From: an uncultured virus (IMG/VR IMGVR_UViG_2061766007_000180)
Lineage: Duplodnaviria; Heunggongvirae; Uroviricota; Caudoviricetes
Strand: one strand, 5' to 3'
DNA: 64,000 nucleotides
IMG/VR virus record: IMGVR_UViG_2061766007_000180
Below the pieces are notes generated by a model, which worked only from the letters and a program-made list of their open reading frames with translations, was not told the DNA's origin and made no database searches. Each line of letters starts with the position of its first letter. The stretch's first letter is position 1. Below are positions 1,488 through 48,902 of this stretch, one piece after another. The position numbers and the translations under genes are program-made.

Positions 1488-1519
1488 NNNNNNNNNNGTC
1501 GATCCGGAAGGGGATTCCG

Positions 1520-2032: not shown

Positions 2033-2135
2033 TCTCTGGAGAGAATTCTTTCGGGAAGATGAGGGTTCTGGTTGACATTGGGACGTGCACCTGCTATAGT
2101 CTGGTCTAGTTCAAGATACACATCGGAAGAGAGAT

Positions 2136-2966
2136 ATGAAAGAAGAGACAAGGCAAGTGGTGTTCGAGACGAACGGAAAGACGTACAAGGAACTTTATGA
2201 CAACATCATCGAGGAAAACCTGAGAAACCCTCCTCCAGAAGGAGAGAACACAATCGAGCATCATATAAGGCCGAGGTCGATTTCCCCAGATTTGATATAT
2301 TCAAGGGAAAATCTCGTAATGCTTACTGAAAAGGACCATCTCCTGGTGCACTATCTCCTGTGGCAGCATTACAAGCACGAGACGGACGACGAAGACTCGG
2401 AGAGAAAGATGTGTGCCGCGTTCTGGGGCATGGTTCATTTAATCGAATGGAAAGGGAACACGGAGCTTGAATGGATTGCCGACAGATACGAAGAGCTGAG
2501 GGTTGATTTCAGGAAGAACCATCCGATGAAAAATCCAGAGGTGAAAGCGAAGATGTTAGCGAAGATGTTGGAGACGATGAATAGGCCAGATGTGAAAGCT
2601 AAAATAAAGGAGGCGTTGAAAAATCCAGAGGTGAAAGCGAAGATGTCGAAGGCGAAGAAGGAGATGTGGAAGAGGCCAGAGGTGAGGGCGAAAATGTCGG
2701 AGGCGAAGAAAGGAGTCAAAAACCCGTCGAAAAGACCAGAGGTGAGGGCGAAGATATCAGAGGCGTTGAAAAATCCAGAGGTGAGGGAGAAGATGTCCAG
2801 GAAAGTGCTTCAATATTTACTTGACGGGACTTTCGTGGCGGAATATCCATCTCTTACCGAAGCTGCGATTAAAACCAATTCACATTGTAGTGCCATTTCA
2901 CGGTGTTGTGCAGGAAAGCAGAAAACCCACAACGGATTCGTCTGGAAATACGCCGAATCGAAATAA
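2136..2966 (+). CDS. HNH homing endonuclease with NUMOD3-like repeats and C-terminal NUMOD1-like HTH
   Basis: EHHIRPRS...ENLV.LT..DH...H; repeated PEV(K/R)AK(M/I)S; C-terminal VLQY.LDG.FV.EY.S..EAA...HNGF.WKY; lower GC; TTGACA/TATAGT promoter upstream. Confidence 0.85.
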   Translation: MKEETRQVVFETNGKTYKELYDNIIEENLRNPPPEGENTIEHHIRPRSISPDLIYSRENLVMLTEKDHLLVHYLLWQHYKHETDDEDSERKMCAAFWGMVHLIEWKGNTELEWIADRYEELRVDFRKNHPMKNPEVKAKMLAKMLETMNRPDVKAKIKEALKNPEVKAKMSKAKKEMWKRPEVRAKMSEAKKGVKNPSKRPEVRAKISEALKNPEVREKMSRKVLQYLLDGTFVAEYPSLTEAAIKTNSHCSAISRCCAGKQKTHNGFVWKYAESK

Positions 2967-3460: not shown

Positions 3461-3772
3461 CAGGTCGAATCAGGGTTCGATACTTGGAATTGGAAAGGGA
3501 AGGAAAGGATCCTGGAGGGGAGATCAAATGGCGGATAAATTCATGGAAGAAGACGAAAAGACAGCTTTGAAACTTCCTCCCCTTCCGGACGGGGTCAATC
3601 CGAAGGATCTCGTTCCGACAAAGACTGTCGGATTGAGGAATCAGTGAGTTATTTCGGTTGGAAAAAGCGGGAGAATAGTCAATAACGCGAATGGATTTTG
3701 GTACAAGACGGAGAATACCGCGAAAAACGTAATAGACATCTATAGAAATCAGACCTCGGATCGAAGTTTTGC

Positions 3773-3801
3773 TTGACACCGGAAGACTTTTCCTGTACAC
3801 T
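3773..3801 (+). promoter_or_regulatory. sigma70-type promoter, leaderless arrangement
   Basis: TTGACA(3773)-17 bp-TACACT(3796), ATG 6 nt downstream at 3808. Confidence 0.75.
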
Positions 3802-3807
3802 AATCCC

Positions 3808-5049
3808 ATGCAAAAGCTCCTGATCCAAGAATTCATCTCCTCCCATTCCGACTGGGAGAGGATCCTTCCGGAAAAGCCCTACTGCCTCAACATCCAGCGG
3901 GACTCCAAGTTCGGAAGGAATCTCGTCCTGTTCAAGTACAACCAGATCGAGTCGGATTTCTCGATTCCCCTAGTCCGGGAGTGCCGGGGGCTGATCCTCG
4001 ACGCGGACACGTTCGAGCCGGTATGTGTTCCGTTCTTCAAGTTTTTTAACTTTTCAGAAAATCTTGCAGACGAGATCGACTGGAAGACAGCGTGGGTGGG
4101 CATGAAAATTGACGGTTCATTGACGAAGGTCGTCCGGCTCGGAAACGACCTCCTCGTCTCCACGAACGGGACGATCGACGCGTACAAGGCTCCTATCCAG
4201 GACCAGATTGGATTCGTCGGAAAGACCTTCGGAGACCTCTTCGAGATGGCCGTCGCGAACGCCAAGGAAAGGTACGACAGGATCTCCCTCGAGAACCACT
4301 ACGCGAGGGAGGATTGGTATCTCGCTCCGATGGACTGGTTCAGGAACCTCCTCCAGGAGGGCTACACCTACATGTTCGAGCTGACCTCCCGGTACAACCA
4401 CATCGTCGTGAAGTTCGGGGATCCGGAGATCCACCTCATCGGGATCAGGGACAACCAGACTTTTCGGGAGATCGAGTTCTTCAACCATCCCCTCTCCCGG
4501 TTCTTCCACACTCCGGAGCTCTTCAGTCTTGGAACCCTGAAGGAGGTGGAGGAGGCCGCGGAGAAGCTCGACGCCAATCACGAGGGATTCGTGGTCTGCG
4601 ACGGGAATTTCCGCCGGGTGAAGGTGAAATCGTCGACGTATGTCGCCATCCACCACCTTCGCGGAGAGGGCGGGGCTCCCTCGTTCGAGCGCGGGATCGA
4701 GATCGTCCGGAAGAACGAGCTCGACGAGGTCCTGACGTACTTCCCCGAGTTCAGGGAGCACCTGGAGAAGATCAGGTCCGACCTTGACACCCTCGTCGAG
4801 AGGCTCGATTCCGGGTGGGATCTTCTCCGGAAAAACCTTTCCGGACTTCCCTCCCGGAAGGATCGGGCGCTGTTCATCATGTCGGACGAGTGCTTCGGAA
4901 AGAAGTTCTCCGGAGTCGGGTTCTCCCTCCTGGACGGAAAGGTCTCCTCCGCGAGGGAATGGGTCGAGAAGTGTCCGGCGAAGAATCTCGTGAAATACCT
5001 AGGATACAAGGAAAATAAACATGAAAATCAAGATCTCCAAGAAGAATAA
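3808..5049 (+). CDS. T4 Rnl1-like ATP-dependent RNA ligase
   Basis: ECRGLI, PFFKFFN, motif I KIDGSL, TYMFEL, motif IV EGFVV, motif V RVKVKS. Confidence 0.9.
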   Translation: MQKLLIQEFISSHSDWERILPEKPYCLNIQRDSKFGRNLVLFKYNQIESDFSIPLVRECRGLILDADTFEPVCVPFFKFFNFSENLADEIDWKTAWVGMKIDGSLTKVVRLGNDLLVSTNGTIDAYKAPIQDQIGFVGKTFGDLFEMAVANAKERYDRISLENHYAREDWYLAPMDWFRNLLQEGYTYMFELTSRYNHIVVKFGDPEIHLIGIRDNQTFREIEFFNHPLSRFFHTPELFSLGTLKEVEEAAEKLDANHEGFVVCDGNFRRVKVKSSTYVAIHHLRGEGGAPSFERGIEIVRKNELDEVLTYFPEFREHLEKIRSDLDTLVERLDSGWDLLRKNLSGLPSRKDRALFIMSDECFGKKFSGVGFSLLDGKVSSAREWVEKCPAKNLVKYLGYKENKHENQDLQEE

Positions 5050-38358: not shown

Positions 38359-38703
38359 TCAATATTGTACGGGGTTTCCCGGATCCGAGACTTCGGTCTT
38401 TCCGGAAAGGAGCTGTTCCAGGATCTCGGCGTACCTTCCCTTTCCGGAAAGATCCGCTCCGGAAAGAAGCTTCCGGAACCTTTCCACCGCCTCTTCCCTC
38501 GGAAGGACGAGCTTTCCCCGGCCGTTCCGGGAGATCTTCACGAAATCGGTCTTCCGGAAGAATTCGGCGGAAAGGACCTCCTTGAGTCCCTTCGTGGTGG
38601 CCTGGAAGTTGAAGAGGAGGTTGTGCGGATACTTGGTCTGCTGCTCGACCCTGGTCCGGAACGTCTTTCCGGAAATGTCCTTCCACGTTATCTGGGCGGT
38701 CAT
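38359..38703 (-). CDS. Hypothetical protein
   Basis: AAAGGA RBS, 114 aa. Confidence 0.65.
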   Translation of the reverse strand: MTAQITWKDISGKTFRTRVEQQTKYPHNLLFNFQATTKGLKEVLSAEFFRKTDFVKISRNGRGKLVLPREEAVERFRKLLSGADLSGKGRYAEILEQLLSGKTEVSDPGNPVQY

Positions 38704-38719
38704 GTCAGATCCTTTCTTT

Positions 38720-39175
38720 TCAGGAAAGCCTCTCCGCGGCTTCCTTCCCCATCTTCTCGGCGTCGAAACGGTACTCCAGGCCGAATTCCTCGATCTGATC
38801 CGGAGTCCACGCTCTCTTCATGTCCCGATCGTAGCAGTTTCCGTCTTCCGGAAGATACGCGTGGACAAGGTCGTCCTCCCCGAGATACAGGAAGAAGGCG
38901 ACCGGAAGCTCCCAGTCTCCTCCTGCGGCGGAGTGGAATACCGGGATCTGCGTTCCCGGAAGAAGATGGAATCCGGCTGGGCCGCCGTAACCCGGCATGT
39001 CGAACGGATCGTTTCCCGGAAAAAGGAAGTTTTCCGTGTCGAAGTCGATCTCGGAAAGGTCGTCCGTTATCTGCCGCGGAATCTCGGAGCTCTCTCCGTC
39101 CGGAGAGAAGCTTTTCGAAATGGCTTCCTGGAGCCGGTCGGAACCGACGTCTTTCTTTGCCTTGACTATGCTCAT
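38720..39175 (-). CDS. Conserved phage hypothetical protein
   Basis: AGGDWE.PV.F..Y....AY.P..GN pattern; AAAGGA RBS. Confidence 0.7.
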   Translation of the reverse strand: MSIVKAKKDVGSDRLQEAISKSFSPDGESSEIPRQITDDLSEIDFDTENFLFPGNDPFDMPGYGGPAGFHLLPGTQIPVFHSAAGGDWELPVAFFLYLGEDDLVHAYLPEDGNCYDRDMKRAWTPDQIEEFGLEYRFDAEKMGKEAAERLS

Positions 39176-39197
39176 CTGGTGTTTTCCTTTGTAGAGA

Positions 39198-39272
39198 TGG
39201 TCACTCCGGTCGGACTCGAACCGACATGGGAGGGATTAGAAATCCCTTGCAAATCCTTTTTGCGACGGAGTG
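39198..39272 (-). tRNA. tRNA-Arg(TCT)
   Basis: CACTCCG/CGGAGTG-A-CCA; AGGGA-TTTCTAA-TCCCT; GTCGG-TTCGAGT-CCGAC. Confidence 0.9.
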
Positions 39273-39362
39273 GTGTCTTTCCCGATCTTGGGTGTGTTCA
39301 TGTCAAGAAGTATACAGGATCTTCCCGCGAATGTCAAGCGAAAACGGGCGGTCTGGATCAGA

Positions 39363-39692
39363 TGGTGGAGAAGACGGGAGTCGAACCCGTTTCCGGAACG
39401 GTCCTTCGGAACGCTTTCTACGACAGTTTCCTACGGAAGTTTAACCTCTCACCCCAATAGGAATCGGATGACAGGCGAGAATCCTCGTTTGAGATCCTTC
39501 GGGCGAGGAGACGAGACCCTCGGAAATGCCAGATAAAGAGTGCCCTACTCGGACCTTATCTGGCGTGTGGTTCTTTCGGGTGGCTCATGCGGCCATTCTG
39601 TAGCTGTTGCCAGTTACTGTTCTTGAACTTACGGCTTCCGCCGTGTCGCTGCGCTCGTGGGACTTGGTTCCGTCGAATGCCGGAACTTCCCC
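39363..39692 (-). ncRNA. ssrA: tmRNA, predicted tag (A)GNSYRMAA
   Basis: GGGGAAG...ATTCGACG 5' end; GGTTCGACTCCCGTCTTCTCCACCA 3' end; G3:U70; TAACT-GGC resume; tag ORF 39611-39585. Confidence 0.92.
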
Positions 39693-39705
39693 TCAAAATC
39701 ATTGG

Positions 39706-40686
39706 TTATTGATGATCAAACCACCATAAAAATTGTTTGATCTTAAACTTCATCCTTTTCTTTCCAACATTATTGTTTATGTTGTTCCAGGCAATTCTAT
39801 AAATGATATATCCATTTTCACGGAGTATTCTATCACGTTTTCTGTCATTTTGTATCCTGTCTGAATATGTATGTTGTTTTCCGTCAATTTCAAGATTTAT
39901 AAGTTTTCCATTCTTTTTTATCAAGAAATCTAAGAAATACCCAAATACTGGAGTCTCACGATTGAATGAAATTCCATTATTATCTAGAACCCTAGTCCAA
40001 AATTTCTCTGGATATGATGTAATATTACGAGATATCCAGCCTTTGTGAGTTCCAGTTAGAACTCTTTGTTGTTGGGCATCTCTCAATCGTTGGCGTGTTT
40101 TTTCTGAAATAATACGTTTCCCAGATTTTGTGTATAACTGATAATGATGTTTGTTTAGTCTGTCACAACATTCGTAACAGTATGCTTTGTTTAGTGTTTT
40201 AATCCAGATTGTTTTTCCACAAGAGGAACATTTAGACATATATGGACGAGGTGATGTTTTTTGTTTGCTGTTTTTTCTGTCTTTTCTAGAATATCCCCAT
40301 TTTTTCAAATAGCATTTGTCACAAAGGGTTTTGTGGGTTGAACATCCAACGTGTATAAATTCTTTTCCACATTCTGGGCAAATGTGCTTTCTGGGTTTTG
40401 ATGTGGATAATGACGTTTTTATTTTTGATTCTTTTGTGCGAATATGTGAATTTGCATGTTCTCGACAACAGAATTGTGGTATTCTATAGTTCATTTTAAA
40501 GTGGCGGATTTTTAGCCTCTTTATAAATTTCTTTCCACATTTCTTACAAATTATTGTAAAATTTTCATATGCTTCATCTGGATCTTTTTTTAAAAATTTT
40601 TTTCTGTGTTCTGGTATATGTTCTTCTGAACATCTCTCGTTTTCTTCTGAATTGGGGAGTTTTAATGAAACGTCTTCATCTATCAT
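39706..40686 (-). CDS. Zn-finger / DUF559 (Vsr-like) homing endonuclease
   Basis: Several CxxC; SYPEK; YFLDF...LEIDGKQH...DRKRD..L...GY...RI.W; very AT-rich. Confidence 0.85.
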   Translation of the reverse strand: MIDEDVSLKLPNSEENERCSEEHIPEHRKKFLKKDPDEAYENFTIICKKCGKKFIKRLKIRHFKMNYRIPQFCCREHANSHIRTKESKIKTSLSTSKPRKHICPECGKEFIHVGCSTHKTLCDKCYLKKWGYSRKDRKNSKQKTSPRPYMSKCSSCGKTIWIKTLNKAYCYECCDRLNKHHYQLYTKSGKRIISEKTRQRLRDAQQQRVLTGTHKGWISRNITSYPEKFWTRVLDNNGISFNRETPVFGYFLDFLIKKNGKLINLEIDGKQHTYSDRIQNDRKRDRILRENGYIIYRIAWNNINNNVGKKRMKFKIKQFLWWFDHQ

Positions 40687-40808
40687 GGTTTTACCTTTAG
40701 TTTTATGTCGTTGTTCCACCAACGACATTTATACTTACAGTATTGTAAGAAAATCTGCTTCCATTCTTATGTTGGGTGGAACCATGATAGAATGGAAGCA
40801 GGGAAAAA

Positions 40809-40880
40809 TCGGGGAACCCGGAAGTCGCACCGGGGCCTTCTCGTCCCAAGCGAGGCGTGCTGCTCTTATACCATTCCCCG
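40809..40880 (-). tRNA. tRNA-Pro(TGG), CCA not encoded
   Basis: CGGGGAA/TTCCCCG-A; loop CTTGGGA; T-loop TGCGACT. Confidence 0.85.
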
Positions 40881-40902
40881 TAATCGTATCGAATTTTTCA
40901 AA

Positions 40903-41037
40903 GGTTGCGCCGGTCCGGATTTCCGGAGACAGAGCTGGCCAGATTGCATCTCCCCGGCATCTTTCCGGAAAGGACGGTTCCGGATGCGCTTTCCGGAAAG
41001 GTCTTCCTCGGAACGTTCTGGTTTGAACTACGGCAAA
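40903..41037 (-). ncRNA. tRNA-derived RNA with expanded arms
   Basis: GCCG-TA-GTTC-AAACCA-GAAC D-arm start; ends TCCGG-AAAT-CCGGA-CCGGCGCAACC. Confidence 0.4.
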
Positions 41038-41113
41038 TGGCGACCCGGCCAGAACTCGAATCTGGAAATAATCCTTAGGGGGGATTCGTGATATCCGATT
41101 TCACCACAGGGTC
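41038..41113 (-). tRNA. tRNA-Arg(CCT), C33
   Basis: GACCCTG/CCGGGTC-G-CCA; AATCC-CCCCTAA-GGATT. Confidence 0.85.
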
Positions 41114-41181
41114 TTTCGAAAGGGTGACATGTGGCAAGTTTACGGAAAGTTGCCGGATGTCGTGTTTTGAGACCGGAAGAT

Positions 41182-41264
41182 TTGCAAGGGATAGATTCGA
41201 ACTATCGAAGCCCGAAGGCAACGGGTTTACAGCCCGTCCTCGTTGACCACTTGAGTACCTTGCA
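41182..41264 (-). tRNA. tRNA-Tyr(GTA)
   Basis: TGCAAGG/CCTTGCA-A; ACGGG-CTGTAAA-CCCGT; long variable arm. Confidence 0.9.
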
Positions 41265-41273
41265 TTGAAAAAG

Positions 41274-41399
41274 GAAGGCGAGACGTAACATAGGCGCTCT
41301 AAGTGCTGAGCTACGGACCCGGAAATGGCGGGTCCGGCAGGAATTCCACCTGCGACCTCCTCCTTAACAAGGGATTAAGAGGAACGTCTTTGTGCCTTC
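41274..41399 (-). ncRNA. Circularly permuted tRNA-Asn(GTT)-like gene
   Basis: 3' half (41372-41326, ends CGGACCC-G-CCA) precedes 5' half (41320-41292, GGGTCCG...); complementary leader and trailer. Confidence 0.65.
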
Positions 41400-41403
41400 G
41401 AAA

Positions 41404-41541
41404 TGGAGCAAGATGCCGAACTCGCATCGGCGTAAACTACCTTTGGTCGTGGAACTTGGATTTGAACCAGGATTTCCTCGTGGTGTTCTACTTGAACTAT
41501 TCCACGGGAAGGGTAGCGCATGACTTCTCTGCCAACCTTGC
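41404..41541 (-). tRNA. tRNA-Gly(TCC) interrupted at 36/37 by a tRNA-like insert
   Basis: GCAAGGT/ATCTTGC-T-CCA; CTACC-CTTCC|insert|AA-GGTAG. Confidence 0.85.
41444..41506 (-). ncRNA. 63-nt tRNA-like element lacking a normal anticodon arm, nested in tRNA-Gly
   Basis: CGTGGAA/TTCCACG-A-CCA; GTTC/GAAC D stem; stub CC-ACGA-GG; TTCAAAT T-loop. Confidence 0.85.
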
Positions 41542-41650
41542 GTTTTGAAACCGTTGAACTATCGGCCCGTTGAAAAAGCAGATGCCGCAACCGGATTTCG
41601 CCAACAACGGCATCGGATTCTCTGCCTACAACATGGTAGGAGAGACTAAA

Positions 41651-41673
41651 TGGTACCTAGACTGGGACTTGAA
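41651..41673 (-). tRNA. 3' fragment of the split tRNA-Lys(TTT)
   Basis: TTCAAGT-CCCAG-TCTAGGT-A-CCA pairs (6/7) with ACCTTGA at 43284-43278. Confidence 0.7.
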
Positions 41674-43169
41674 TGTACTCATGAACATAAACTCCGTAAA
41701 GAAGTTTCGGAAATGCCAACGTTGGACTTTCTGTTCCTGAGCTGAAACCACCTCTCGTCTCCTCGAAGTGGAACCCTGTACATCATTCCAGAGTTTTTGA
41801 AGAAGGAATGCATCTCCTTCCAGGATCCGAAGCTCTCTTCCGTCCCAAATTCTTCCAACGACTTGGAGACGGCCTCGGCGAACCTCGGCATCCTGGGGAA
41901 TACGACGTTCCCCAAGCTTGAAATATTCCTGTCTACAAACTGCCTTCTGAACTCGTACCCCCTGCGGCCGATCTCGATCGACGCGTTGACCATGTCGGGA
42001 GCCCCGTGCCTCCTGAAGAGGATGTTTCCCACGAACGACGAGTAGGCCGCCGCGATCTCCTGAAAGTGGATTCCGGCTATCACACATCTTTTTCTCAGAT
42101 TGTCGACGAGCTTCTTCCTGAGCCACCTGTTGTTCCGGATCTTGTTCTGGTATTTCCCAAGCCCGGAATTCCCCGACCTCATGTCGAGGCTTTCCGCGGC
42201 GAAGGTCTCACACTGGAAGTACCTGGCCTTGTCGACGAGGTTTTTCGCGACCTCGAACGTCTCATGCCGCAACTTGTCGGCGGCGTATTTCCTTTTCTTG
42301 TCGGACGACGGGATCCCAAGCCTCCTCAAGGCCCATTCCCGGTCGTTCAGGTTCTTGAACGAATATACGCCGCTCTTCACGATCCGGTAGTCGTTCTCAT
42401 CCTTCCAGTCGACGACCGACCACCCAACGTAGTTCGGGTTCATGTCTATCGCCATGACCCGACTCTTGATCTGCTCGGTTCGGCGGACGCCGAACACGTC
42501 CTTCTCGTCGAATGTGATGTAGAGATGGTCCAACCCGAGCCTGAATGTCACCGGAGCCCGTTTTCCGACCTGGATCTCATGGAGTTTCTTCAGGATCTTC
42601 CTGATGTTCTTCCGGTTTCCGTATTCGAGCTTTAGGTCGAACCTGACGTCCCTGGAGGGCTGGAACAGGATATTGTCAAGGTCCTTCTGGATCCGGAAGT
42701 TCCTGTTTCCGTGATGTTCCCGGTCTCCGATGCAGTAGAACGGACTCAACCTCGCAAGCCTGAATTCCTCTCTCGTGATCCTCTTCCTGCATCTGGAAAC
42801 GAAGTTCTTCTTCCCTCCGAAGACGACCTTGTCGTTTAATGTGATGAGCTGAGTTGCTTCCTTGAACGCACAATGGAGAGTCCATTTCGAGATCATATGA
42901 AGGTTTTGAAGTTCTTCTGCCAGTTTCGTGGTTTCCTTCTCTCCAAGACCTTCCTTGACCCGATTGTAGACAAAATGCAGACAGTTGGAATATTGGCGAA
43001 GATGGGAAACCACGATTTCCTTCTCTTCGTCTGTCTCAACTGAATATCTGAGTTTTATCGTTTGCATTAGTCTTGTTGTTATTTACTACGGAAAGGTTCT
43101 GGAACTTTAATTGATTGTGTAATATTGTACACAATTTATGATTTTTAAGGTACTTTATTATTTTAAAAC
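41674..43169 (-). mobile_element. TnpB-only element inserted in tRNA-Lys
   Basis: Bounded by the two parts of tRNA-Lys; no transposase; AT-rich left end. Confidence 0.7.
41679..43067 (-). CDS. tnpB: TnpB-family RNA-guided endonuclease (no Zn-finger)
   Basis: RuvC-I AIDMNP, RuvC-II AAESL, AYSSFVGN, RuvC-III PDMVNASIEI. Confidence 0.85.
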   Translation of the reverse strand: MQTIKLRYSVETDEEKEIVVSHLRQYSNCLHFVYNRVKEGLGEKETTKLAEELQNLHMISKWTLHCAFKEATQLITLNDKVVFGGKKNFVSRCRKRITREEFRLARLSPFYCIGDREHHGNRNFRIQKDLDNILFQPSRDVRFDLKLEYGNRKNIRKILKKLHEIQVGKRAPVTFRLGLDHLYITFDEKDVFGVRRTEQIKSRVMAIDMNPNYVGWSVVDWKDENDYRIVKSGVYSFKNLNDREWALRRLGIPSSDKKRKYAADKLRHETFEVAKNLVDKARYFQCETFAAESLDMRSGNSGLGKYQNKIRNNRWLRKKLVDNLRKRCVIAGIHFQEIAAAYSSFVGNILFRRHGAPDMVNASIEIGRRGYEFRRQFVDRNISSLGNVVFPRMPRFAEAVSKSLEEFGTEESFGSWKEMHSFFKNSGMMYRVPLRGDERWFQLRNRKSNVGISETSLRSLCS

Positions 43170-43284
43170 AACCCACAGATTATGGACGTCACTGGGTGAA
43201 TTGCACACCCGCCTCCATTACTGGTGTTCTCTTTAGAAACTAAGTGACGAAAGTCTGTTGCTCTGCCAATTGAGCTATCAAGGT
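43170..43284 (-). tRNA. 5' part of tRNA-Lys(TTT), interrupted at 35/36 by a tRNA-like insert and then by the TnpB element
   Basis: ACCTTGA-TA-GCTC...GAGC-A-ACAGA-CTTT|insert|TAA-TCTGT-GGGTT. Confidence 0.8.
43183..43249 (-). ncRNA. 67-nt tRNA-like element with GNRA-capped stub instead of an anticodon arm, nested in tRNA-Lys
   Basis: CGTCACT/AGTGACG-T-CCA; CCA-GTAA-TGG stub; GGGTG-TGCAATT-CACCC. Confidence 0.85.
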
Positions 43285-43293
43285 GTTGAAGGG

Positions 43294-43464
43294 CTCGTGT
43301 GGGAAGACTCGAACTTCCAAACCTTTCGGCGGCAGATTATGGAGGAATGAAATGGATTCGAACCATTACCCCATGCCGAGGACCTAGTTAACCTCCAGAC
43401 AATGTATGCAACCTCTACACCATCATTCCACAGTCTGCTGCGGCTACCATTTCGCCACACACGA
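43294..43464 (-). tRNA. tRNA-Asn(GTT), long variable arm, interrupted at 35/36 by a tRNA-like insert
   Basis: TCGTGTG/CACACGA-G; GCAGA-CTGT|insert|TAA-TCTGC; GGAAG-TTCGAGT-CTTCC. Confidence 0.85.
43340..43429 (-). ncRNA. 90-nt tRNA-like element with elongated aberrant anticodon arm, nested in tRNA-Asn
   Basis: GGAATGA/TCATTCC-T-CCA; AATGG-TTCGAAT-CCATT. Confidence 0.85.
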
Positions 43465-43587
43465 TCAAAGCGCGAGGGTTTTTCTGGGGAGCCGTAACCT
43501 GAAACGGTCCTTGAGGCGAATTGCCCCCTGCCGGACTGAACGCCGCATGCTGCGCAATCCCAACCCACAAAGCAGTTCAAGAAGAAA

Positions 43588-43739
43588 TGGAGCGAGGGTC
43601 CCGATTCGGATTTCGTACGCTAGCATCCTACTTTCCGCGTCCTATGACAGGCCGGGCACGTGTTTTGGTCCCGAATCCGCCTCCGGCTCGACTAACCCGG
43701 CTCGCAACGGACTGGCTGTCCGTACGTCCGGCCCCTCGC
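43588..43739 (-). ncRNA. 152-nt RNA closed by a tRNA-like acceptor stem with U-CCA
   Basis: GCGAGGG/CCCTCGC-T-CCA; internal GATTCGG/CCGAATC; no T arm. Confidence 0.55.
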
Positions 43740-43764
43740 AATGACACACCGGAGTTGAGAAAAA

Positions 43765-43923
43765 GGAGCGGATCCGCCGACTGGAACCCCTTTCGAGGCC
43801 CCGAAGAGCTTTCTCCGGATGTTGGGTATTCCATTTTCCGGGAAGAGTCTTCTTCCTCGGAGTTTCTTTCGGGTGTCCCTATATCGGTGGAACACATCAG
43901 GTTTGACTCCCTGTCGGATCTGC
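43765..43923 (-). ncRNA. Structured ncRNA of unknown class (weakly 6S-like)
   Basis: GCAGATCCG/CGGATCCGC terminal stem; CCTGATGTGTTC motif. Confidence 0.4.
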
Positions 43924-43934
43924 TGAGATGAAAC

Positions 43935-44009
43935 TGGAGCTGGGTGGGAATTCCGAGATCCCATCGTCTTTCTTACAAGGAAAGTGCCTATCCGTTCGGC
44001 CAACCCAGC
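43935..44009 (-). tRNA. tRNA-Thr(TGT), aberrant T-loop
   Basis: GCTGGGT/ACCCAGC-T-CCA; CTTTC-CTTGTAA-GAAAG. Confidence 0.85.
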
Positions 44010-44013
44010 AAAA

Positions 44014-44088
44014 TGGTTCCGACGGAGGGTATCGATCCCACCTGACCCGTCTTAAAAGGACGGTACCTATCCTCTCGGTCACGTCGGA
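44014..44088 (-). tRNA. tRNA-Lys(TTT), uninterrupted
   Basis: TCCGACG/CGTCGGA-A-CCA; CCGTC-CTTTTAA-GACGG. Confidence 0.88.
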
Positions 44089-44094
44089 TCAAAT

Positions 44095-44169
44095 CGTTCC
44101 TGGAGGGACTTGAACCCCCAAAATCCTCCGTGAAAGGGAGGTGGCTATAACCAGTTTGCCTACAGGAAC
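44095..44169 (-). tRNA. tRNA-Glu(TTC), CCA not encoded
   Basis: GTTCCTG/CAGGAAC-G; CCTCC-CTTTCAC-GGAGG. Confidence 0.9.
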
Positions 44170-44341
44170 AAAGACGTTTCGGAACGCACCGGCCCGTACA
44201 CTAAACGGCGTCACGCGTCGGATCCCTCGGCTATGTTAGGCTCTTGAACGGCACGTCTGCTTCCGGAAATCGACCGTCGTCGGAACCGGAAATCGCCGAA
44301 CACCTCAAGCGGATCCGCTCTTCTGTTAGTATTCCATGAAA

Positions 44342-44417
44342 TGGTAGCGGGAGTAGGGCTCGAACCTACGACCTCCGGGGTATGAACCCGACAAGCTGCC
44401 AACTGCTCCATCCCGCT
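44342..44417 (-). tRNA. Initiator-type tRNA-Met(CAT)
   Basis: AGCGGGA/TCCCGCT-A-CCA; TGGAGCAG D arm; three G-C pairs closing loop TTCATAC. Confidence 0.9.
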
Positions 44418-44424
44418 GAAATCG

Positions 44425-44964
44425 TCATTGGTAATTCGGATCCGCCTGTATCACCCCAAACCGGTGGAAGTATTCCAACGGTCTCATTTTTCTGACTTTG
44501 GTCTCTCCCTTGCGCGGCACGTAGAATCCCCACTTGTGCCGCGGCCGTCCTTCAAGAAGAAGAGTCCACGCTCCGAATTCCGAGATGTTCAGAAAATGTC
44601 TTTGCTCGGCCTTTGAGAACCATATCGACCGTCCCAGGTTCCATGATGGCTTGTGCGTTTCCGAACCAAACAGGCCAATGACCTCGCAGAACCTCTTGTT
44701 GTTCCCAGACGGCGGCAGCTCCGGATCCAGAGGCACCGTGTTCCAGTACCGGCCCCAGATCACCACGCTTATGAAATTCGCAGCATGGTCGTGGAAATAC
44801 CTTCTGTCGTCCGATCTCAGCCAATGGTGGAGTCGTATTGTGAATCCGAATATCACCAATGTCCATCTGACGAGGTATGGATTTCTCGGATCCCCCAGTT
44901 TCTCCGCCCATCTCACCTGAAACAACTTTCCGAACGGTCTAGTGTCCGACGAACCTGTTGACAT
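44425..44964 (-). CDS. Conserved phage protein, cupin-like
   Basis: PYLVRW...IRLHH.LRSD...HDH...F.S; WGF; AAAGGAG RBS. Confidence 0.75.
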   Translation of the reverse strand: MSTGSSDTRPFGKLFQVRWAEKLGDPRNPYLVRWTLVIFGFTIRLHHWLRSDDRRYFHDHAANFISVVIWGRYWNTVPLDPELPPSGNNKRFCEVIGLFGSETHKPSWNLGRSIWFSKAEQRHFLNISEFGAWTLLLEGRPRHKWGFYVPRKGETKVRKMRPLEYFHRFGVIQADPNYQ

Positions 44965-44989
44965 GACAGTCTCCTTTGTGGTTGTTAAA

Positions 44990-45167
44990 TGGTCAGGTTG
45001 GTTGGATTCGAACCTCAAGGGATCCGATCAACGATCCCCTGGAGCCAGCGTGGGGGTTTCCACATCTTAAAGCTCTCACCATCCTCTCCGCGTAAACTCG
45101 CGTTCGTTATCCATGGATTCGAACATTTGAGCATTGGAGCGTGCTTCCCTATTACACCATCAACCCG
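44990..45167 (-). ncRNA. tRNA-like RNA with about 100-nt insertion in place of the anticodon arm
   Basis: CGGGTTG/CAACCTG-A-CCA; TGGTGTAATAGGGAAGCAC D arm; GGTTCGAATCC T arm. Confidence 0.6.
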
Positions 45168-45181
45168 TTGGATTTAAAGTT

Positions 45182-45254
45182 TGGACACGTGCGGATTCGA
45201 ACCGCGAACTTCTCGGTGCAAACGAGATGTGATACCAGATTTCACCACCGGCCC
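45182..45254 (-). tRNA. tRNA-Ala(TGC), acceptor mismatches
   Basis: TCTCG-TTTGCAC-CGAGA; G3:U70; GCGG-TTCGAAT-CCGC. Confidence 0.75.
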
Positions 45255-45650
45255 TTGAAATCACAGGCCGTCTCCGCTCAGGCGAGGGGTAGAGACTTGG
45301 GAGACGGCCGGTGGGGCTTTCGCCCCGATCTATTCGTAAATGAATAGGAACCCCATGTGCCATGCTTAAATCGAGAAGTCTCCGGAGCCGCTTTTCCGCC
45401 TGCCAAAGAAAGGAGTAAACAAAACAGGCCGTTCCACCTGGGGAGAGGTCCACCTCCCGGACGGAGACAAGGCGGAGGATAGGGGGAGAAAGGAAAGAAA
45501 ACCCCAGGCCCTCCGCACATCGTGACACCCGAAAAAGATAGGCCCGCCAAACAGGCCCTTCCACTTTTCGGGTCCGCGCTCGGCCAAACACCTGTTTAAG
45601 GTCGCCGAGCCGACCTCCGGAGAATTCCACTCCGGAAAATTCAAACCGCC

Positions 45651-45665
45651 CAGTTTTCAAAGATC
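45651..45665 (-). promoter_or_regulatory. rrn-type boxA antitermination signal
   Basis: GATCTTTGAAAACTG about 20 nt downstream of the -10 box. Confidence 0.65.
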
Positions 45666-45686
45666 TTGTTTCCTGCCAACGCCTAT

Positions 45687-45715
45687 AGTGTACAACTTTC
45701 ACCGTCGGCAGTCAA
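45687..45715 (-). promoter_or_regulatory. sigma70-type promoter of the RNA operon
   Basis: TTGACT-17 bp-TACACT. Confidence 0.75.
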
Positions 45716-45733
45716 GCAAAAAGCGCAACTTAT

Positions 45734-46231
45734 TTACACCGGACCATCTCCGGAAATTCCAGGCCCGGAAATTCCTGGCCCTCTCGCCTTTCCGGGAATC
45801 TTCGCCACGACCCACTTTCCGGGATTTGCCCTCATGTGCCCGAGCCCTACCGGAAAAGGTCTCTTCCGGTCCCTCTCCTCCCGGAGGAAGTTTCTCGGAT
45901 CCTGCCTGTTCCGGAGCTTCCTCTCGAGCCATCTCTCCGCATCCAGGTTCGTCCAGGCCCTCGTGGAATAGAACACCGAAAGGTCGTACGGGATTCCGAA
46001 GTTCCTGAGGACAAATTTCTCGGCAGGCTCCCTTTCCGGCAGGCCCTTCAGGAACCTCCTCCACCCGGTCTCGGTGTCGAACCTTCCCGCACAGAGGAGA
46101 AAGCTCCTGGCCCTGTCCTCCGGATCGCTCCTCCGGAGATACATCAGAAGGTACCATCCTTCCCGGGATCCGATCGAGGCTGTCCTTATGAGCTCGGCGT
46201 CTCCGGGAAGGCGGTTCCCGGAAATCGTCAC
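45734..46231 (-). CDS. Hypothetical protein
   Basis: GTG start inferred from coupling to upstream stop. Confidence 0.5.
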   Translation of the reverse strand: MTISGNRLPGDAELIRTASIGSREGWYLLMYLRRSDPEDRARSFLLCAGRFDTETGWRRFLKGLPEREPAEKFVLRNFGIPYDLSVFYSTRAWTNLDAERWLERKLRNRQDPRNFLREERDRKRPFPVGLGHMRANPGKWVVAKIPGKARGPGISGPGISGDGPV

Positions 46232-46881
46232 CGGGAACCCTTCCTTCCGGACCGGGCTTTCCGGACCGGCTTGCCGTCGGATATCTTCCTGGTGTCGGCT
46301 CCGGCCTTCTCCTTCGCCTTCTTCTGGGCGGCCTTCTCGGCGGCGCGCTTTCTCGTGGCGGGAGTCTGGTCGTACGCCCTTTCGATGATGCGCTTCAGCT
46401 CCATCATGTATCCGGCGGAGCTGTAGTTTCCGCGGTCGTCCGGAGTTCCGTAGAGACGCTTCACGATCGCGAACGCGAGACCTGCCTCCTTCGAGAACGT
46501 GTCGTCCTTCGAGGCCCTCACCATGGAGGTCGTCCCGTCCTCGAACCACACCTTCGTGACCGGCTCGTTGAAGACCACGCGGCTGATCTTCGGAAATGCG
46601 GTCCTGGTTTCGACCGTGTAGGTGGAGCCGTCCGGACTTGCGGGAAGGTCCCCGAAGGGCTCCTCCATGTCGACGTCATCCCCAGGATCGTCCTCCCTGA
46701 TCTCCTCCGCGGAATCGTAGAGCTCGCGGATCCTGTCGCGGAGCTTCCGGACGGCATCGCCCTCGTGCAGGTTCTGGCGGACGGTGCGTGTCCCGAGCCG
46801 TTCGGTCGCTTCCGGAAAATGCTCTCCGAAGAGCATAATGTCAAACAGGGGGGCAAACGGGTTCTGTATGGTGTTGTACAT
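46228..46881 (-). CDS. Conserved phage hypothetical protein
   Basis: RVVFNEPVTKVWFEDGT...D.FSKEAGLAFAI pattern. Confidence 0.75.
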   Translation of the reverse strand: MYNTIQNPFAPLFDIMLFGEHFPEATERLGTRTVRQNLHEGDAVRKLRDRIRELYDSAEEIREDDPGDDVDMEEPFGDLPASPDGSTYTVETRTAFPKISRVVFNEPVTKVWFEDGTTSMVRASKDDTFSKEAGLAFAIVKRLYGTPDDRGNYSSAGYMMELKRIIERAYDQTPATRKRAAEKAAQKKAKEKAGADTRKISDGKPVRKARSGRKGSR

Positions 46882-47605: not shown

Positions 47606-47797
47606 TCAGGCCTTCTCGTAGTGCGTCGACCTTATCGTCGTCCACTTCATCCGGGCGAACCGTTCCTCGGAATCGTTTCGGGAGATGTCGAGGATAAAGC
47701 TCTCGACTTCCTTCTTCGTCCTGAACGACCCCACGTAGTTTCCCTTCGAGTAGAGATCGTACATGGGAACGCCTCTCATGATCCTGCTGGGTTTCAT
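47606..47797 (-). CDS. Hypothetical protein
   Basis: 63-aa ORF. Confidence 0.5.
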   Translation of the reverse strand: MKPSRIMRGVPMYDLYSKGNYVGSFRTKKEVESFILDISRNDSEERFARMKWTTIRSTHYEKA

Positions 47798-48001
47798 GAT
47801 GAGAGTGTACGGAAAATTCCTGGCCCCCGGTCACTTTCCGGAAGAATTTTCCAGAAGCCTCTCCATCGCCTCGGTCTCCCGGAGGATCTCTTCCCGGAAC
47901 TCTTCCTCGAGACCTTCGCTCGATCTCACGTCCGAGGAGATTCTCCGGAGCGAGTTGAGGAGGCAGACAAGGTCGCCGGGTTGCATCGGGAGACCTCCAT
48001 T

Positions 48002-48259
48002 TCAGCAGTCCCTCCGGAAGATCCTCCAGTCGGAAATCCTCAACGCGGCCCATGCGAGGGCGTACACGAGGGCGGCTCCGGCGAAGATCCCGAGGACGAG
48101 CATGGCCGGAAAGGTCACCGGAAGGGTCATCAGGATCCACGAGAGGAAGCTCCATTCCTCCATCGGAACGCTTCCGCACACCGCCCTCGACGCTATGATC
48201 GTCGCGGAAAGGATCGGTCCCCAGATGCCGCAACCTATGGAAATGCTCTTTCTGTCCAT
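48002..48259 (-). CDS. Two-TM membrane protein
   Basis: Hydrophobic 85-aa ORF, GAGG RBS. Confidence 0.6.
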   Translation of the reverse strand: MDRKSISIGCGIWGPILSATIIASRAVCGSVPMEEWSFLSWILMTLPVTFPAMLVLGIFAGAALVYALAWAALRISDWRIFRRDC

Positions 48260-48277
48260 GCTCTGCCTCTCGGGTAC

Positions 48278-48640
48278 TTACAGGGCGCGAACGAACTCCC
48301 AGATGTCCGTCAGGTTGTCCTTCCCGACGATCCTCACCGCCCGGAATATCGTGTCGGTGAGCCACTTGATGAACTCGTCGGTGTAGCCATTCGTCTCGTA
48401 TCCTTCGGGACGGGGAAGGTCATCTTCGCAGGGAGGGTAGGGAGTTCCCGGAATCCCCCAGTAGACGCAGGACTTTCCGGTCTTCTCCTCGTATTTCTCC
48501 TCGATCCCGTCCGGAGGCGTCAGATCCCAGTCTTCGGCCCACGCGAAGGCATCCTCGCAGAGGACGTGCTCGCTCTCGGTGAGTTCGTGCCCGAACCAGT
48601 TGACGAAGAGTTCGGATTGCTTGAGGCTGTCGCAATTCAT
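48278..48640 (-). CDS. Hypothetical protein
   Basis: AAAGGA RBS. Confidence 0.7.
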   Translation of the reverse strand: MNCDSLKQSELFVNWFGHELTESEHVLCEDAFAWAEDWDLTPPDGIEEKYEEKTGKSCVYWGIPGTPYPPCEDDLPRPEGYETNGYTDEFIKWLTDTIFRAVRIVGKDNLTDIWEFVRAL

Positions 48641-48653
48641 TTTATGTTTCCTT

Positions 48654-48902
48654 TCAGCGGGAAAATCCAAGATAGAACCAGAACTTGTTTGAGGGCGTCT
48701 TTCCGTAGTCGGAGGCGATCTTCCGGACGAGCCATTCTCTGGCGGGCTTCGGGTCGATGACCAGATGTCCGTCCCTTCCCTTGGAGAGGATTCTTTCCGA
48801 GAGAGCCTCGTTCTCCACGAGTTCGTAGTGGACGCTTTCCGGAAGGGATGACTTGTTCTTTCCCCTCCACTTGAGGTCTCCTGTGGTGATGTTCAGTTTC
48901 AT
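48654..48902 (-). CDS. Hypothetical protein
   Basis: Cassette promoter and RBS. Confidence 0.65.
   Translation of the reverse strand: MKLNITTGDLKWRGKNKSSLPESVHYELVENEALSERILSKGRDGHLVIDPKPAREWLVRKIASDYGKTPSNKFWFYLGFSR

What the first reader, a model, noticed from the sequence alone, without database searches (positions are those of the whole stretch)
43170..43284. Case 3: tRNA-Lys(TTT) with a 67-nt GNRA-capped tRNA mimic splitting the anticodon (TT|T)
The sequence reads ACCTTGA-TA-GCTCAATTGGCAGAGC-A-ACAGA-CTTT | CGTCACT...CCA-GTAA-TGG...GGGTG-TGCAATT-CACCC-AGTGACG-T-CCA | TAA-TCTGT. The insert's anticodon arm is replaced by a 3-bp helix closed with a GNRA tetraloop, which looks selected rather than decayed. 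tRNA-Lys(UUU) is the classical PrrC anticodon-nuclease target (established). A second, uninterrupted Lys(TTT) lies at 44014-44088.
Basis: partly seen in the sequence, partly recalled or inferred. Interest (0 to 1): 0.85.

Follow-up and report, generated by a model that had tools for sequence, protein, structure and literature searches.

The report
tRNA-shaped insert inside phage tRNA genes
A rumen phage carries tRNA genes whose anticodon loops are interrupted by a small tRNA-shaped, CCA-ended insert, a compact form of the unexplained "tRNA introns" of megaphages that looks built to be cut out by ordinary tRNA-trimming enzymes; the lysine copy flagged here has also been broken by a transposon.

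Summary
On the minus strand, 43284..43250 is the 5' part of a Lys(UUU)-type tRNA. 43249..43183 is a 67-nt tRNA-like module ending in CCA. 43182..43169 completes the anticodon loop and stem.

It is one of three such genes in the window; the others are Asn-type (43464..43292) and Gly-type (41541..41404). A pattern search found three more distinct ones in other phage-like metagenome contigs. The six inserts average 49% column identity yet keep their helices: 96.9% of cells pair, and 14 of 16 pairs show double changes. Removing each insert from its +1 base to CCA restores a callable tRNA with a 7-nt loop in 5 of 5 complete hosts.

The Lys copy is damaged. A 1.5-kb IS607-type TnpB element (43173..41671) sits in its T arm, and the gene's 3' end lies at 41670..41651. 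A related rumen contig has the insert, an intact T arm and no element.

Tentative prior art: Lak megaphage "enigmatic" tRNA introns (Devoto 2019). Splicing by RNase P, a cut after CCA and an Rnl1-type ligase is inferred, not shown. The GNRA cap is not conserved, and the PrrC link is untested.

The parts
43250..43284 (-). 5' part of the Lys(UUU)-type host tRNA: acceptor 5' strand, D arm, anticodon-stem 5' strand ACAGA, loop positions 32-35 (CTTT)
   Evidence: Read directly; MFE fold pairs ACAGA with TCTGT around the insert
43183..43249 (-). 67-nt tRNA-shaped insert: 7-bp acceptor helix, D arm, 3-bp stub with GUAA loop in place of the anticodon arm, T arm with loop TGCAATT, discriminator T, encoded CCA
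   Evidence: Rfam RF00005 30.7 bits; helices covary with five other inserts
43169..43182 (-). Loop positions 36-38 (TAA), anticodon-stem 3' strand TCTGT, variable loop GGGTT(G). The last 5 bases overlap the first bases of the TnpB element, so the junction is ambiguous
   Evidence: related contig matches down to 43169; element-only contigs match up to 43172/43173
41671..43173 (-). IS607-type TnpB element (tnpB ORF 41679-43067, 462 aa) inserted in the T arm of the Lys host
   Evidence: Element-only contigs in 4 runs match 41671 to 43172/43173 at about 96% identity and then run on unlike the window; tblastn to Lak phages and the CP220 ISCaje4 TnpB; no Pfam or PHROG hit at the thresholds used
41651..41670 (-). 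3' remainder of the Lys host: end of the T loop (AAGT), T-stem 3' strand CCCAG, acceptor 3' strand TCTAGGT (6 of 7 pairs with ACCTTGA), A, CCA
   Evidence: ARAGORN calls a Lys(ttt) after in-silico removal of insert and element, but with only a 2-bp T stem
43292..43464 (-). Second nested gene: Asn(GUU)-type host with an extra GAAA-capped variable arm, holding a 90-nt CCA-ended insert at 43340-43429 (the 'tRNA-Ser(gga)' of plain ARAGORN)
   Evidence: aragorn -i; finder; spliced form called tRNA-Asn(gtt), 83 nt; the ARAGORN drawing of the insert shows a poor anticodon stem
41404..41541 (-). Third nested gene: complete Gly(UCC)-type host with a 63-nt CCA-ended insert at 41444-41506
   Evidence: Rfam tRNA 39.8 bits on the insert; MFE fold gives a nested cloverleaf; spliced form called tRNA-Gly(tcc), 75 nt
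44014..44088 (-). Ordinary, uninterrupted tRNA-Lys(ttt); its sequence is unrelated to the nested host
   Evidence: ARAGORN; read
3769..5049 (+). T4 Rnl1 (gp63)-type RNA ligase, the proposed sealing enzyme. The link to the nested genes is circumstantial
   Evidence: PF09511 E 3e-14; phrog_562 E 2e-46; PDB 2c5u T4 RNA ligase 1 E 1e-16

Best explanation
Case 3 is a real tRNA-in-tRNA gene. A Lys(UUU)-type phage tRNA carries, between anticodon positions 35 and 36, a 67-nt intervening element. That element is a tRNA body without an anticodon arm and with an encoded CCA end.

It belongs to a compact family with six distinct members seen here, in Lys, Asn-type and Gly hosts, across four phage-like contigs with GC from 28% to about 55%. 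I file this family, tentatively, as a variant of the 'enigmatic' tRNA introns of Lak megaphages.

Proposed mechanism (inferred, not shown):
1. The insert is recognised as a pre-tRNA.
2. RNase P cuts at its +1 base (43249), leaving ...CUUU-3'OH on the 5' exon.
3. The endonuclease that matures CCA-encoded tRNAs cuts just after its CCA (43183), leaving 5'-P-UAAUCUGU... on the 3' exon.
4. The two exons stay paired through the acceptor and anticodon stems.
5. A 3'-OH/5'-P RNA ligase of the T4 Rnl1 type, encoded at 3769-5049, seals the nick. The product is a 7-nt loop CUUUUAA.

In this genome the Lys copy is disrupted by a TnpB insertion sequence in its T arm and is probably non-functional. The Asn-type and Gly copies are intact.
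For: Shown:
1. The anatomy is as described.
2. Rfam's tRNA model scores all six inserts above its gathering score of 29 bits: 30.7, 39.8 and 39.4 in the window; 43.2, 40.9 and 39.1 in L004, L005 and L008.
3. Covariation across the six inserts: 96.9% of 96 cells pair, against 63.3% in shuffles (0 of 500 reach it). 14 of 16 pairs have changes on both sides. Slid controls give 37.5-54.2%. The pairs at the G53:C61 and G10:C25 positions are invariant. U8 and the T-loop T, C and A are also invariant.
4. Cutting from insert +1 to CCA leaves 7-nt loops with U33 and A37 in all six: CTTT|TAA, CTGT|TAA (three times), CTTCC|AA, CTTT|TAA. ARAGORN then calls a tRNA with that anticodon in 5 of 5 complete hosts. 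In L004, L005 and L008 my pattern fixed the loop letters but not the register of the insert's acceptor helix. That helix nevertheless starts right after loop position 35 in 3 of 3.
5. The insert's 3' end follows each phage's own tRNA-gene habit. Ordinary tRNA genes encode CCA in 2 of 2 (L004), 11 of 11 (L005), 14 of 14 (L006), 2 of 2 (L008) and 5 of 8 (window), and all six inserts there end in NCCA. In Lak-A1, 0 of 29 tRNA genes encode CCA, and none of the 3 intron modules does.
6. The base before the insert is U in 5 of 6. That this suits bacterial RNase P is recalled, not tested.
7. A related allele has an intact T arm and no TnpB element.
8. An Rnl1-type ligase lies in the window.

From papers:
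- One-step endonucleolytic cleavage immediately after CCA is documented for E. coli RNase E on proline tRNAs (PMC5291269, abstract read).
- The same is reported for Thermotoga maritima RNase Z, as cited in the introduction of PMC7479834 (passage read).
Against: - No RNA evidence. The one RNA run laid (X20, contigs only) touches tRNA-Pro, the tnpB 3' end and tRNA-Met, but not the nested genes.
- The enzyme that would cut after CCA in the unknown host is not identified. Exonucleolytic 3' trimming, the usual route for CCA-encoded tRNAs, would destroy the 3' exon.
- Rnl1 homologues occur in 1018 phage records. Most of these are T4-like phages not known to have such genes, so its presence here is weak evidence.
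- Lak-A1 gave no PF09511 or RtcB hit, although the PF09511 control rang nowhere.
- Lak introns have a 27-31-nt leader before the module. RNase P cleavage alone would not remove it, so the rule does not transfer cleanly to them.
- Each phage also has an ordinary gene for the same anticodon where I could look: Lys in the window, Asn and Lys in L005. The nested copies therefore need not decode.
- The Case-3 copy itself is broken.
Confidence: 0.5

Rival explanations
1. The released tRNA-like module is the product, and the host tRNA is only a processing and expression scaffold. RNase P and the 3' nuclease liberate a CCA-ended, anticodon-less tRNA mimic, which might act as a decoy or cofactor for a tRNA-binding enzyme. 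The two host halves are discarded.
For: Strong structural selection on the module itself. It keeps tRNA core positions and an encoded CCA. Ordinary genes for the same anticodons coexist. The phage survives with the Lys host broken while the module's own sequence is intact.
Against: Host tRNAs are themselves conserved as full cloverleaves with covarying acceptor and T stems. The loop halves always add up to a canonical 7-nt loop with U33 and A37. A mere scaffold would not need either. The middle of the module is not conserved.
Confidence: 0.17
2. The composite RNA works unspliced. For example, it could be a decoy that binds anticodon nucleases or other tRNA-targeting defences, while the insert makes the loop uncleavable.
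For: Lys and Asn anticodon loops are classical targets of anticodon nucleases (recalled: PrrC, colicin E5). Phage tRNAs that evade such defences are documented; I saw only the titles and abstracts of PMC10264068 and PMC11555353 in the listing. Normal copies of the same tRNAs coexist.
Against: A Gly(UCC) host here, and Thr and Phe hosts in Lak, are not classical targets. A decoy would not need loop halves that restore an exact 7-nt loop, nor an insert whose ends coincide with tRNA processing sites and follow the local CCA habit.
Confidence: 0.13
3. A selfish, mobile tRNA-like insertion sits in spare tRNA gene copies, with no benefit to the phage. It is tolerated because ordinary copies exist.
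For: Lak alleles occur with and without a given intron (PMC6784885, passages read). Inserts in the same host type are unrelated in sequence: window Lys versus L004 Lys. The Case-3 gene is disrupted by a further mobile element.
Against: No mobility gene or mechanism is evident. Host and insert helices are both maintained by compensatory change across contigs with GC from 28% to about 55%, which argues for long-term purifying selection. This rival is compatible with the splicing mechanism rather than opposed to it.
Confidence: 0.15
4. Chance resemblance, assembly chimera or a decayed tandem tRNA pair.
For: The window has N runs elsewhere and comes from a metagenome.
Against: There are three units in the window against 0 in 40 shuffles. 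The same stretch is present in independent runs of other studies. The same architecture occurs in three further distinct contigs. Covariation is strong.
Confidence: 0.01

Closest known systems
'Enigmatic' tRNA introns of Lak megaphages (Devoto et al. 2019, Nat Microbiol, PMC6784885; passages and Table S6 read; preprint 10.1101/356790)
   Same: Inserts sit in the anticodon loops of phage tRNA genes, and the paper predicts that one of them (Thr TGT) 'itself may encode a tRNA'. Host types overlap: Gly(TCC), and a gene the paper calls Tyr(GTA) whose loop halves CTGT|TAA match the Asn-type here. The mechanism is unknown. By my reading, all three Lak-A1 introns end in an acceptor helix plus a TTCGAWT T arm that abuts the 3' exon.
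   Different: Lak introns are 79-114 nt. They start with a 27-31-nt leader that holds a small hairpin, and they lack CCA. The inserts here have no leader, run exactly from +1 to an encoded CCA, and lie in a roughly 50-55% GC phage. My CCA-based finder found none in 30 Lak-A1 tRNA loci. The acceptor register in the Lak modules is uncertain by 1-2 nt, so the 7-nt rule is less secure there.
Group I introns in bacterial and phage tRNA anticodon loops
   Same: They interrupt the anticodon loop of a bacterial-type tRNA gene.
   Different: The inserts here are 63-90 nt and have no group I core. No Rfam ribozyme or intron family reaches threshold in the window or the loci.
Archaeal and eukaryal protein-spliced tRNA introns (bulge-helix-bulge, splicing endonuclease plus RtcB or Trl1)
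   Same: Protein-dependent removal of a short intron in or near the anticodon loop, followed by ligation.
   Different: In the fold the two junctions lie in 4-nt and 7-nt single strands separated by the whole insert, not by a 4-bp helix between two 3-nt bulges. The proposed ends (3'-OH and 5'-P) are the opposite of those made by a splicing endonuclease.
mascRNA/MALAT1 and viral tRNA-like processing signals; mitochondrial tRNA punctuation (recalled)
   Same: A tRNA-shaped module inside a longer transcript recruits RNase P and RNase Z to cut at its two ends.
   Different: Those cuts release ends and are not followed by rejoining of the flanks. None of them lies inside another tRNA.
T4 Pnkp/Rnl1 repair of PrrC-cleaved tRNA-Lys (recalled; the ligase homology was tested)
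   Same: An Rnl1-type ligase acts on a nick in a tRNA anticodon loop. A Lys(UUU) tRNA is involved.
   Different: PrrC-type breaks need end healing by Pnkp, which was not found among the 60 window ORFs scanned. Here the break would be made by tRNA-processing enzymes, and its ends would already be ligatable.

Membership tests
Megaphage tRNA introns with a tRNA-like module (Devoto 2019) | Insert lies inside the anticodon loop of a phage-encoded tRNA gene | tested here: met
   Between loop positions 35 and 36. The window is phage-like: phrog hits, a tmRNA and a tRNA array.
Megaphage tRNA introns with a tRNA-like module (Devoto 2019) | Insert itself folds like a tRNA | tested here: met
   RF00005 30.7 bits; covariation in 14 of 16 pairs across six inserts.
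Megaphage tRNA introns with a tRNA-like module (Devoto 2019) | Removing the insert restores a canonical tRNA | tested here: inconclusive
   Met in 5 of 5 complete hosts of the family. For Case 3 itself the anticodon arm is restored, but the T stem has only 2 bp even after the TnpB element is removed. A related allele appears intact.
Megaphage tRNA introns with a tRNA-like module (Devoto 2019) | Lak-type layout: leader hairpin before the module, no encoded CCA | tested here: not met
   No leader, and CCA is encoded, against the Lak-A1 layout. I therefore file it as a variant, not a plain member.
Group I intron | Conserved catalytic core of about 200 nt or more (Rfam RF00028) | tested here: not met
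   No hit at gathering score or at E up to 5 in 38500-46500. The insert is 67 nt.
BHB (splicing-endonuclease) intron | Two 3-nt bulges separated by a 4-bp helix at the splice sites | tested here: not met
   The MFE fold shows the junctions flanking the 7-bp acceptor helix of the insert.
Decoding tRNA (the insert taken on its own) | Anticodon arm with a 7-nt loop | tested here: not met
   The arm is replaced by a 3-bp stub with a 4-nt loop. ARAGORN does not call it.
T4-type tRNA repair (PrrC countermeasure) | Rnl1 together with Pnkp | tested here: inconclusive
   An Rnl1 homologue is present. No polynucleotide kinase-phosphatase was found among 60 ORFs of this 64-kb window. The rest of the genome is not available.
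IS607-type TnpB element (the interrupting element) | TnpB homologue inside a unit that recurs with the same ends in other contexts | tested here: met
   tblastn E 2e-105; ISCaje4 annotation in CP220; matches 41671 to 43172/43173 in other samples, with unlike flanks. No TnpA ORF is present in this copy.

The most novel reading that the evidence does not exclude
These genes would define a third route of tRNA splicing, beside self-splicing group I introns and BHB endonuclease introns. The intron is a tRNA-shaped module that borrows the cell's own tRNA end-maturation enzymes, RNase P at its 5' end and the CCA-end endonuclease at its 3' end. These make two clean cuts with ligatable ends. A phage Rnl1-type ligase, until now known only as a tRNA repair enzyme, then acts as the splicing ligase.
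Probability: 0.35. Interest if true: 0.85.

Novelty: new variant of a known kind. Interest (0 to 1): 0.62.

Why it matters
Introns in megaphage tRNAs were reported in 2019 as 'enigmatic'. My four literature searches found no paper that proposes a mechanism.

The compact form seen here makes the question testable. Its two boundaries coincide with the two sites at which any pre-tRNA is matured. Its 3' end follows the CCA habit of each phage's own tRNA genes. The predicted ends are exactly what an Rnl1-type ligase joins.

If confirmed, it would give phage RNA ligases a constitutive role. It would also show how bacteria-type systems can splice a tRNA without a ribozyme or a splicing endonuclease.

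There is a practical point as well. Standard tRNA finders miscall these genes. The insert is called 'tRNA-Ser(gga)', and the hosts are called His or Tyr instead of GUU. tRNA repertoires and code predictions for huge phages are affected by this.

Tried and rejected
- No whole genome is held for the window.
- Exact strings from two inserts gave 0 matches in viral contigs.
- A neighbouring protein (47621-48760) has no relatives in viral contigs.
- The Lys/Asn nested pattern gave 0 in viral contigs and 0 in genome contigs. A Gly-type pattern gave 0 in viral contigs.
- blastn of the L005 unit against 50,697 phage records gave no match. blastn of 41200-45300 matched only ordinary tRNA-Met genes.
- Of the 5 metagenome loci, L007 is a false positive with no tRNA features. 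L006 repeats L005.
- My CCA-based finder found nothing in 30 Lak-A1 loci.
- A looser finder (leader 0-45 nt, with or without CCA, confirmed by ARAGORN) was run over all loci. That included 30 loci of a second huge phage, LR756500.1. It added only an alternative register for one Lak intron.
- The search for the expected acceptor strand TCAAGGTNCCA gave 5 one-mismatch hits against 3.59 expected, which is not significant by itself. The hit at 41651-41661 became meaningful only once one search placed the element's end at 41671.
- RNA run X20 gave no contig over the nested genes, so it says nothing about expression or splicing.
- PF09511 and RtcB searches of Lak-A1 were negative. The PF09511 control rang in no genome, so that result says nothing.
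- The records behind L004-L008 are not held for whole-record searches.
- MAFFT alignment A3 of the three Asn-type units is shifted at the 3' end of L008, so I did not use it for counts.
- I considered and rejected the idea that the TnpB gene and the nested tRNAs form one system. The element recurs elsewhere without them.

Full report
**1. What is there**

The sense strand is the minus strand. The stretch from 43284 down to 43169 reads as follows.

- 43284..43250: acceptor strand ACCTTGA, TA, D arm GCTC-AATTGGCA-GAGC, A, anticodon-stem strand ACAGA, and loop letters CTTT.
- 43249..43183: a 67-nt module. It has a perfect 7-bp acceptor helix (CGTCACT/AGTGACG), U8-A9, a 4-bp D stem, a 3-bp stub closed by GUAA where the anticodon arm should be, a T arm (GGGTG-TGCAATT-CACCC), discriminator T, and CCA.
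- 43182..43169: TAA, TCTGT, GGGTT, G.

Rfam's tRNA model matches the module alone at 30.7 bits against a gathering score of 29. Plain ARAGORN does not call it, but it does call the ordinary Lys(ttt) at 44014-44088. The MFE fold nests the module inside the ACAGA/UCUGU stem.

**2. It is not alone**

The same cluster holds two more units.

- A complete Gly(UCC)-type host at 41541..41404 carries a 63-nt CCA-ended module at 41506..41444. Rfam scores that module at 39.8 bits.
- A host at 43464..43292 carries a 90-nt module at 43429..43340.

Plain ARAGORN calls the 90-nt module 'tRNA-Ser(gga)'. Its own drawing shows a poor anticodon stem and an unpaired long arm. With introns allowed, ARAGORN calls the host His(gtg) with a 90-nt intron.

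A simple descriptor finds exactly these three units in the window and none in 40 shuffles. It needs a T arm and acceptor helix, then NCCA, flanked by a 5-bp stem that leaves a 7-nt loop with U33.

**3. Context**

The window is a phage contig.

- Most ORFs have no family. The hits that do occur are phage ones, including a T4 gp63/Rnl1-type RNA ligase at 3769-5049. The support for the ligase is PF09511 at E 3e-14, phrog_562 at E 2e-46, and PDB 2c5u at E 1e-16.
- It holds 10 ARAGORN tRNA calls and a tmRNA.
- Public runs that hold the stretch are labelled bovine gut metagenomes. Two of them may be the source itself.

**4. The TnpB element and the fate of the Lys gene**

The 462-aa ORF at 41679-43067 has no Pfam or PHROG hit at the thresholds used. 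It is nevertheless 40% identical (E 2e-105) to ORFs of Lak megaphages, and 38.6% identical to the annotated ISCaje4 TnpB of Campylobacter phage CP220.

I laid contigs of four other runs on 40500-45500. Element-only contigs match 41671 to 43172/43173 at about 96% identity and then run on unlike the window. This is seen in X5 record 11, X7 records 20 and 21, X6 records 15-17 and RNA record 2. The mobile unit is therefore 43173..41671.

Immediately beyond its right end, the window reads AAGT-CCCAG-TCTAGGT-A-CCA (41670..41651). This is the end of a T loop, a T-stem 3' strand, an acceptor strand that pairs 6 of 7 with ACCTTGA, and ACCA. The element therefore sits inside the Lys host.

Removing the module and the element in silico gives an ARAGORN Lys(ttt) call, but with only a 2-bp T stem. 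The 5' strand of the T stem is missing, so this copy is probably dead.

One related contig (X6 record 18, 585 nt) covers 43169-43283 with 13 differences and no gaps. Its next 22 letters, read in the sense direction, form a regular 5-bp T stem with loop TTCGACT and an acceptor strand, followed by ACCA. That is an allele with the insert, an intact T arm and no element. I inferred this from tables 5c and 8; I could not retrieve the contig itself.

**5. Relatives elsewhere**

I built a pattern from the letters shared by the Lys and Asn-type units: loop and stem letters, the T-loop consensus, and CCA plus the 3' loop and stem. It found 5 loci in metagenome contigs.

- L004: a Lys host with an 82-nt module.
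- L005: an Asn-type host with a 67-nt module.
- L006: the same sequence as L005.
- L008: an Asn-type host with a 66-nt module.
- L007: a false positive.

The same pattern found nothing in viral contigs or genome contigs.

The new modules score 43.2, 40.9 and 39.1 bits with Rfam's tRNA model. The contigs are phage-like, have GC of 28-45%, and give much longer ORFs when TAG is read through. L005 and L006 carry CTA-anticodon tRNAs.

**6. Selection on shape**

The six distinct modules average 49% column identity. On the acceptor, D and T helices:

- 96.9% of 96 cells form standard pairs. Shuffles give 63.3% (0 of 500 reach the observed value), and slid controls give 37.5-54.2%.
- 14 of 16 pairs show changes on both sides.
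- The pairs at the G53:C61 and G10:C25 positions are invariant. So are U8 and the T, C and A of the T loop.

The stub that replaces the anticodon arm is not conserved. It is 2-3 bp with a 4-5-nt loop in four modules, and an arm of 26-33 nt in two. The GNRA cap of Case 3 is therefore not a family feature.

The hosts are conserved as tRNAs as well. After the module is removed, ARAGORN calls Asn(gtt), Gly(tcc), Lys(ttt), Asn(gtt) and Asn(gtt) in 5 of 5 complete hosts. Their acceptor and T stems are fully paired and differ from one host to the next.

**7. The rule that suggests the mechanism**

In all six units, cutting at the module's +1 base and right after its CCA leaves loop halves that add up to 7 nt with U33 and A37. 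For the three window units I saw this before designing any pattern. For L004, L005 and L008 the pattern fixed the loop letters but not the register of the module.

The module's 3' end also follows the tRNA-gene habit of its phage.

| Source | Ordinary tRNA genes with encoded CCA |
|---|---|
| L004 | 2 of 2 |
| L005 | 11 of 11 |
| L006 | 14 of 14 |
| L008 | 2 of 2 |
| Window | 5 of 8 |
| Lak-A1 | 0 of 29 |

All six compact modules end in NCCA. The three Lak-A1 intron modules lack CCA.

This fits a reading in which the module is handled by the same enzymes that mature ordinary tRNAs.

- RNase P would leave a 3'-OH on the 5' exon.
- A cut immediately after CCA would leave a 5'-phosphate on the 3' exon. 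Such a cut is documented for E. coli RNase E on proline tRNAs (PMC5291269, abstract) and reported for T. maritima RNase Z (cited in PMC7479834, passage).
- An Rnl1-type ligase joins exactly such ends in anticodon loops (T4 paradigm, recalled), and one is encoded in the window.

Every step of this mechanism is inferred. No RNA data bear on it.

**8. Comparison with what is known**

A note from this scan pointed me to Devoto et al. 2019. I read its passages, its Table S6 and the preprint.

The paper reports that Lak megaphage tRNAs contain 'enigmatic' introns, in Thr(TGT), Gly(TCC), Phe(GAA) and 'Tyr(GTA)' genes. It predicts that the Thr intron 'itself may encode a tRNA'. No mechanism is given.

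I read the three Lak-A1 cases from the record. Each has a 27-31-nt leader with a small hairpin, followed by an acceptor-helix-plus-T-arm module without CCA that abuts the 3' exon. By my reading, the loop halves are CTGT|TAA (which reads GUU, not Tyr), CTGAA|AA and CTTGT|AA. The acceptor register is uncertain by 1-2 nt there.

The inserts in this window are therefore a compact, CCA-ended variant of a kind already noted in print. They are not group I introns (no Rfam hit) and not BHB introns.

Four literature searches found no paper on how such introns are removed. Terms such as 'nested tRNA', 'tRNA-in-tRNA' and 'tRNA-shaped intron' showed no occurrence in the 25 rows listed.

**9. Verdict**

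- The Case-3 gene is a transposon-damaged member of a conserved family of tRNA-in-tRNA genes.
- The splicing mechanism is a well-motivated inference (about 0.5) with clear tests.
- Novelty: a new variant of a known but unexplained kind.

Noticed in passing
window 41291-41400 (-): A tRNA-like domain whose acceptor helix (GGGTCCG/CGGACCC) is closed by a loop containing GCCA. It has a T arm, a D arm and a long hairpin, and it is mounted on an outer stem (GAAGGC/GCCTTC). This is the layout of bacterial YrlA-type Y RNAs. The Rfam YrlA hit is weak: 24.7 bits against a gathering score of 69.
   Followed up: partly
window 41651-41670 and 41671-43173 (-): The TnpB element ends 8 nt after the tnpB stop codon. 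The 20 nt that follow (the position of an omega-RNA guide) are the 3' end of the Lys host tRNA. The first 5 bases of the element (GGTTG) equal the host's variable-loop letters, so the junction is ambiguous and about 8 host bases seem to be lost.
   Followed up: partly
window 41575-41651: A 77-nt block right after the Lys host's CCA includes a hairpin followed by a T run. It recurs at about 97% identity in contigs of two other runs, with unlike flanks (X5 record 10 and X6 record 14).
   Followed up: no
window 43578-43940: A stretch between tRNA genes with no convincing ORF is conserved at about 90% in contigs of three other runs. In those contigs it is joined to 40909-41034 across 1538 other letters instead of the window's 2553. 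It may be a structured RNA. No Rfam family hit it.
   Followed up: no
window 43292-43464; L005 3429-3580; L008 5972-6125: The Asn(GUU)-type hosts carry an extra variable arm closed by GAAA, and have G73. This is unusual for an Asn tRNA. tRNA finders call these hosts His or Tyr because they take a letter of the insert into the anticodon.
   Followed up: partly
window 39600-40800: An AT-rich island (GC about 0.31-0.38, against about 0.5-0.6 around it) lies between the tmRNA and tRNA-Pro. It holds a 340-aa ORF with a DUF559/REase_MTES_1575 endonuclease domain and is flanked by inverted repeats. It is probably another mobile insertion.
   Followed up: no
window 1304-2966: A NADAR-domain protein (PF08719, E 1e-68) lies next to an HNH homing endonuclease, upstream of the Rnl1-type ligase.
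   Followed up: no
L004, L005, L006, L008: These contigs give much longer ORFs when TAG is read through, and L005 and L006 carry CTA-anticodon tRNAs, so they are TAG-recoded phages. L008 also carries a TnpB-like transposase (phrog_506, E 1e-40).
   Followed up: partly
window 40961-41001: Two exact copies of the palindrome CTTTCCGGAAAGG lie 28 nt apart, between tRNA-Pro and tRNA-Arg.
   Followed up: no
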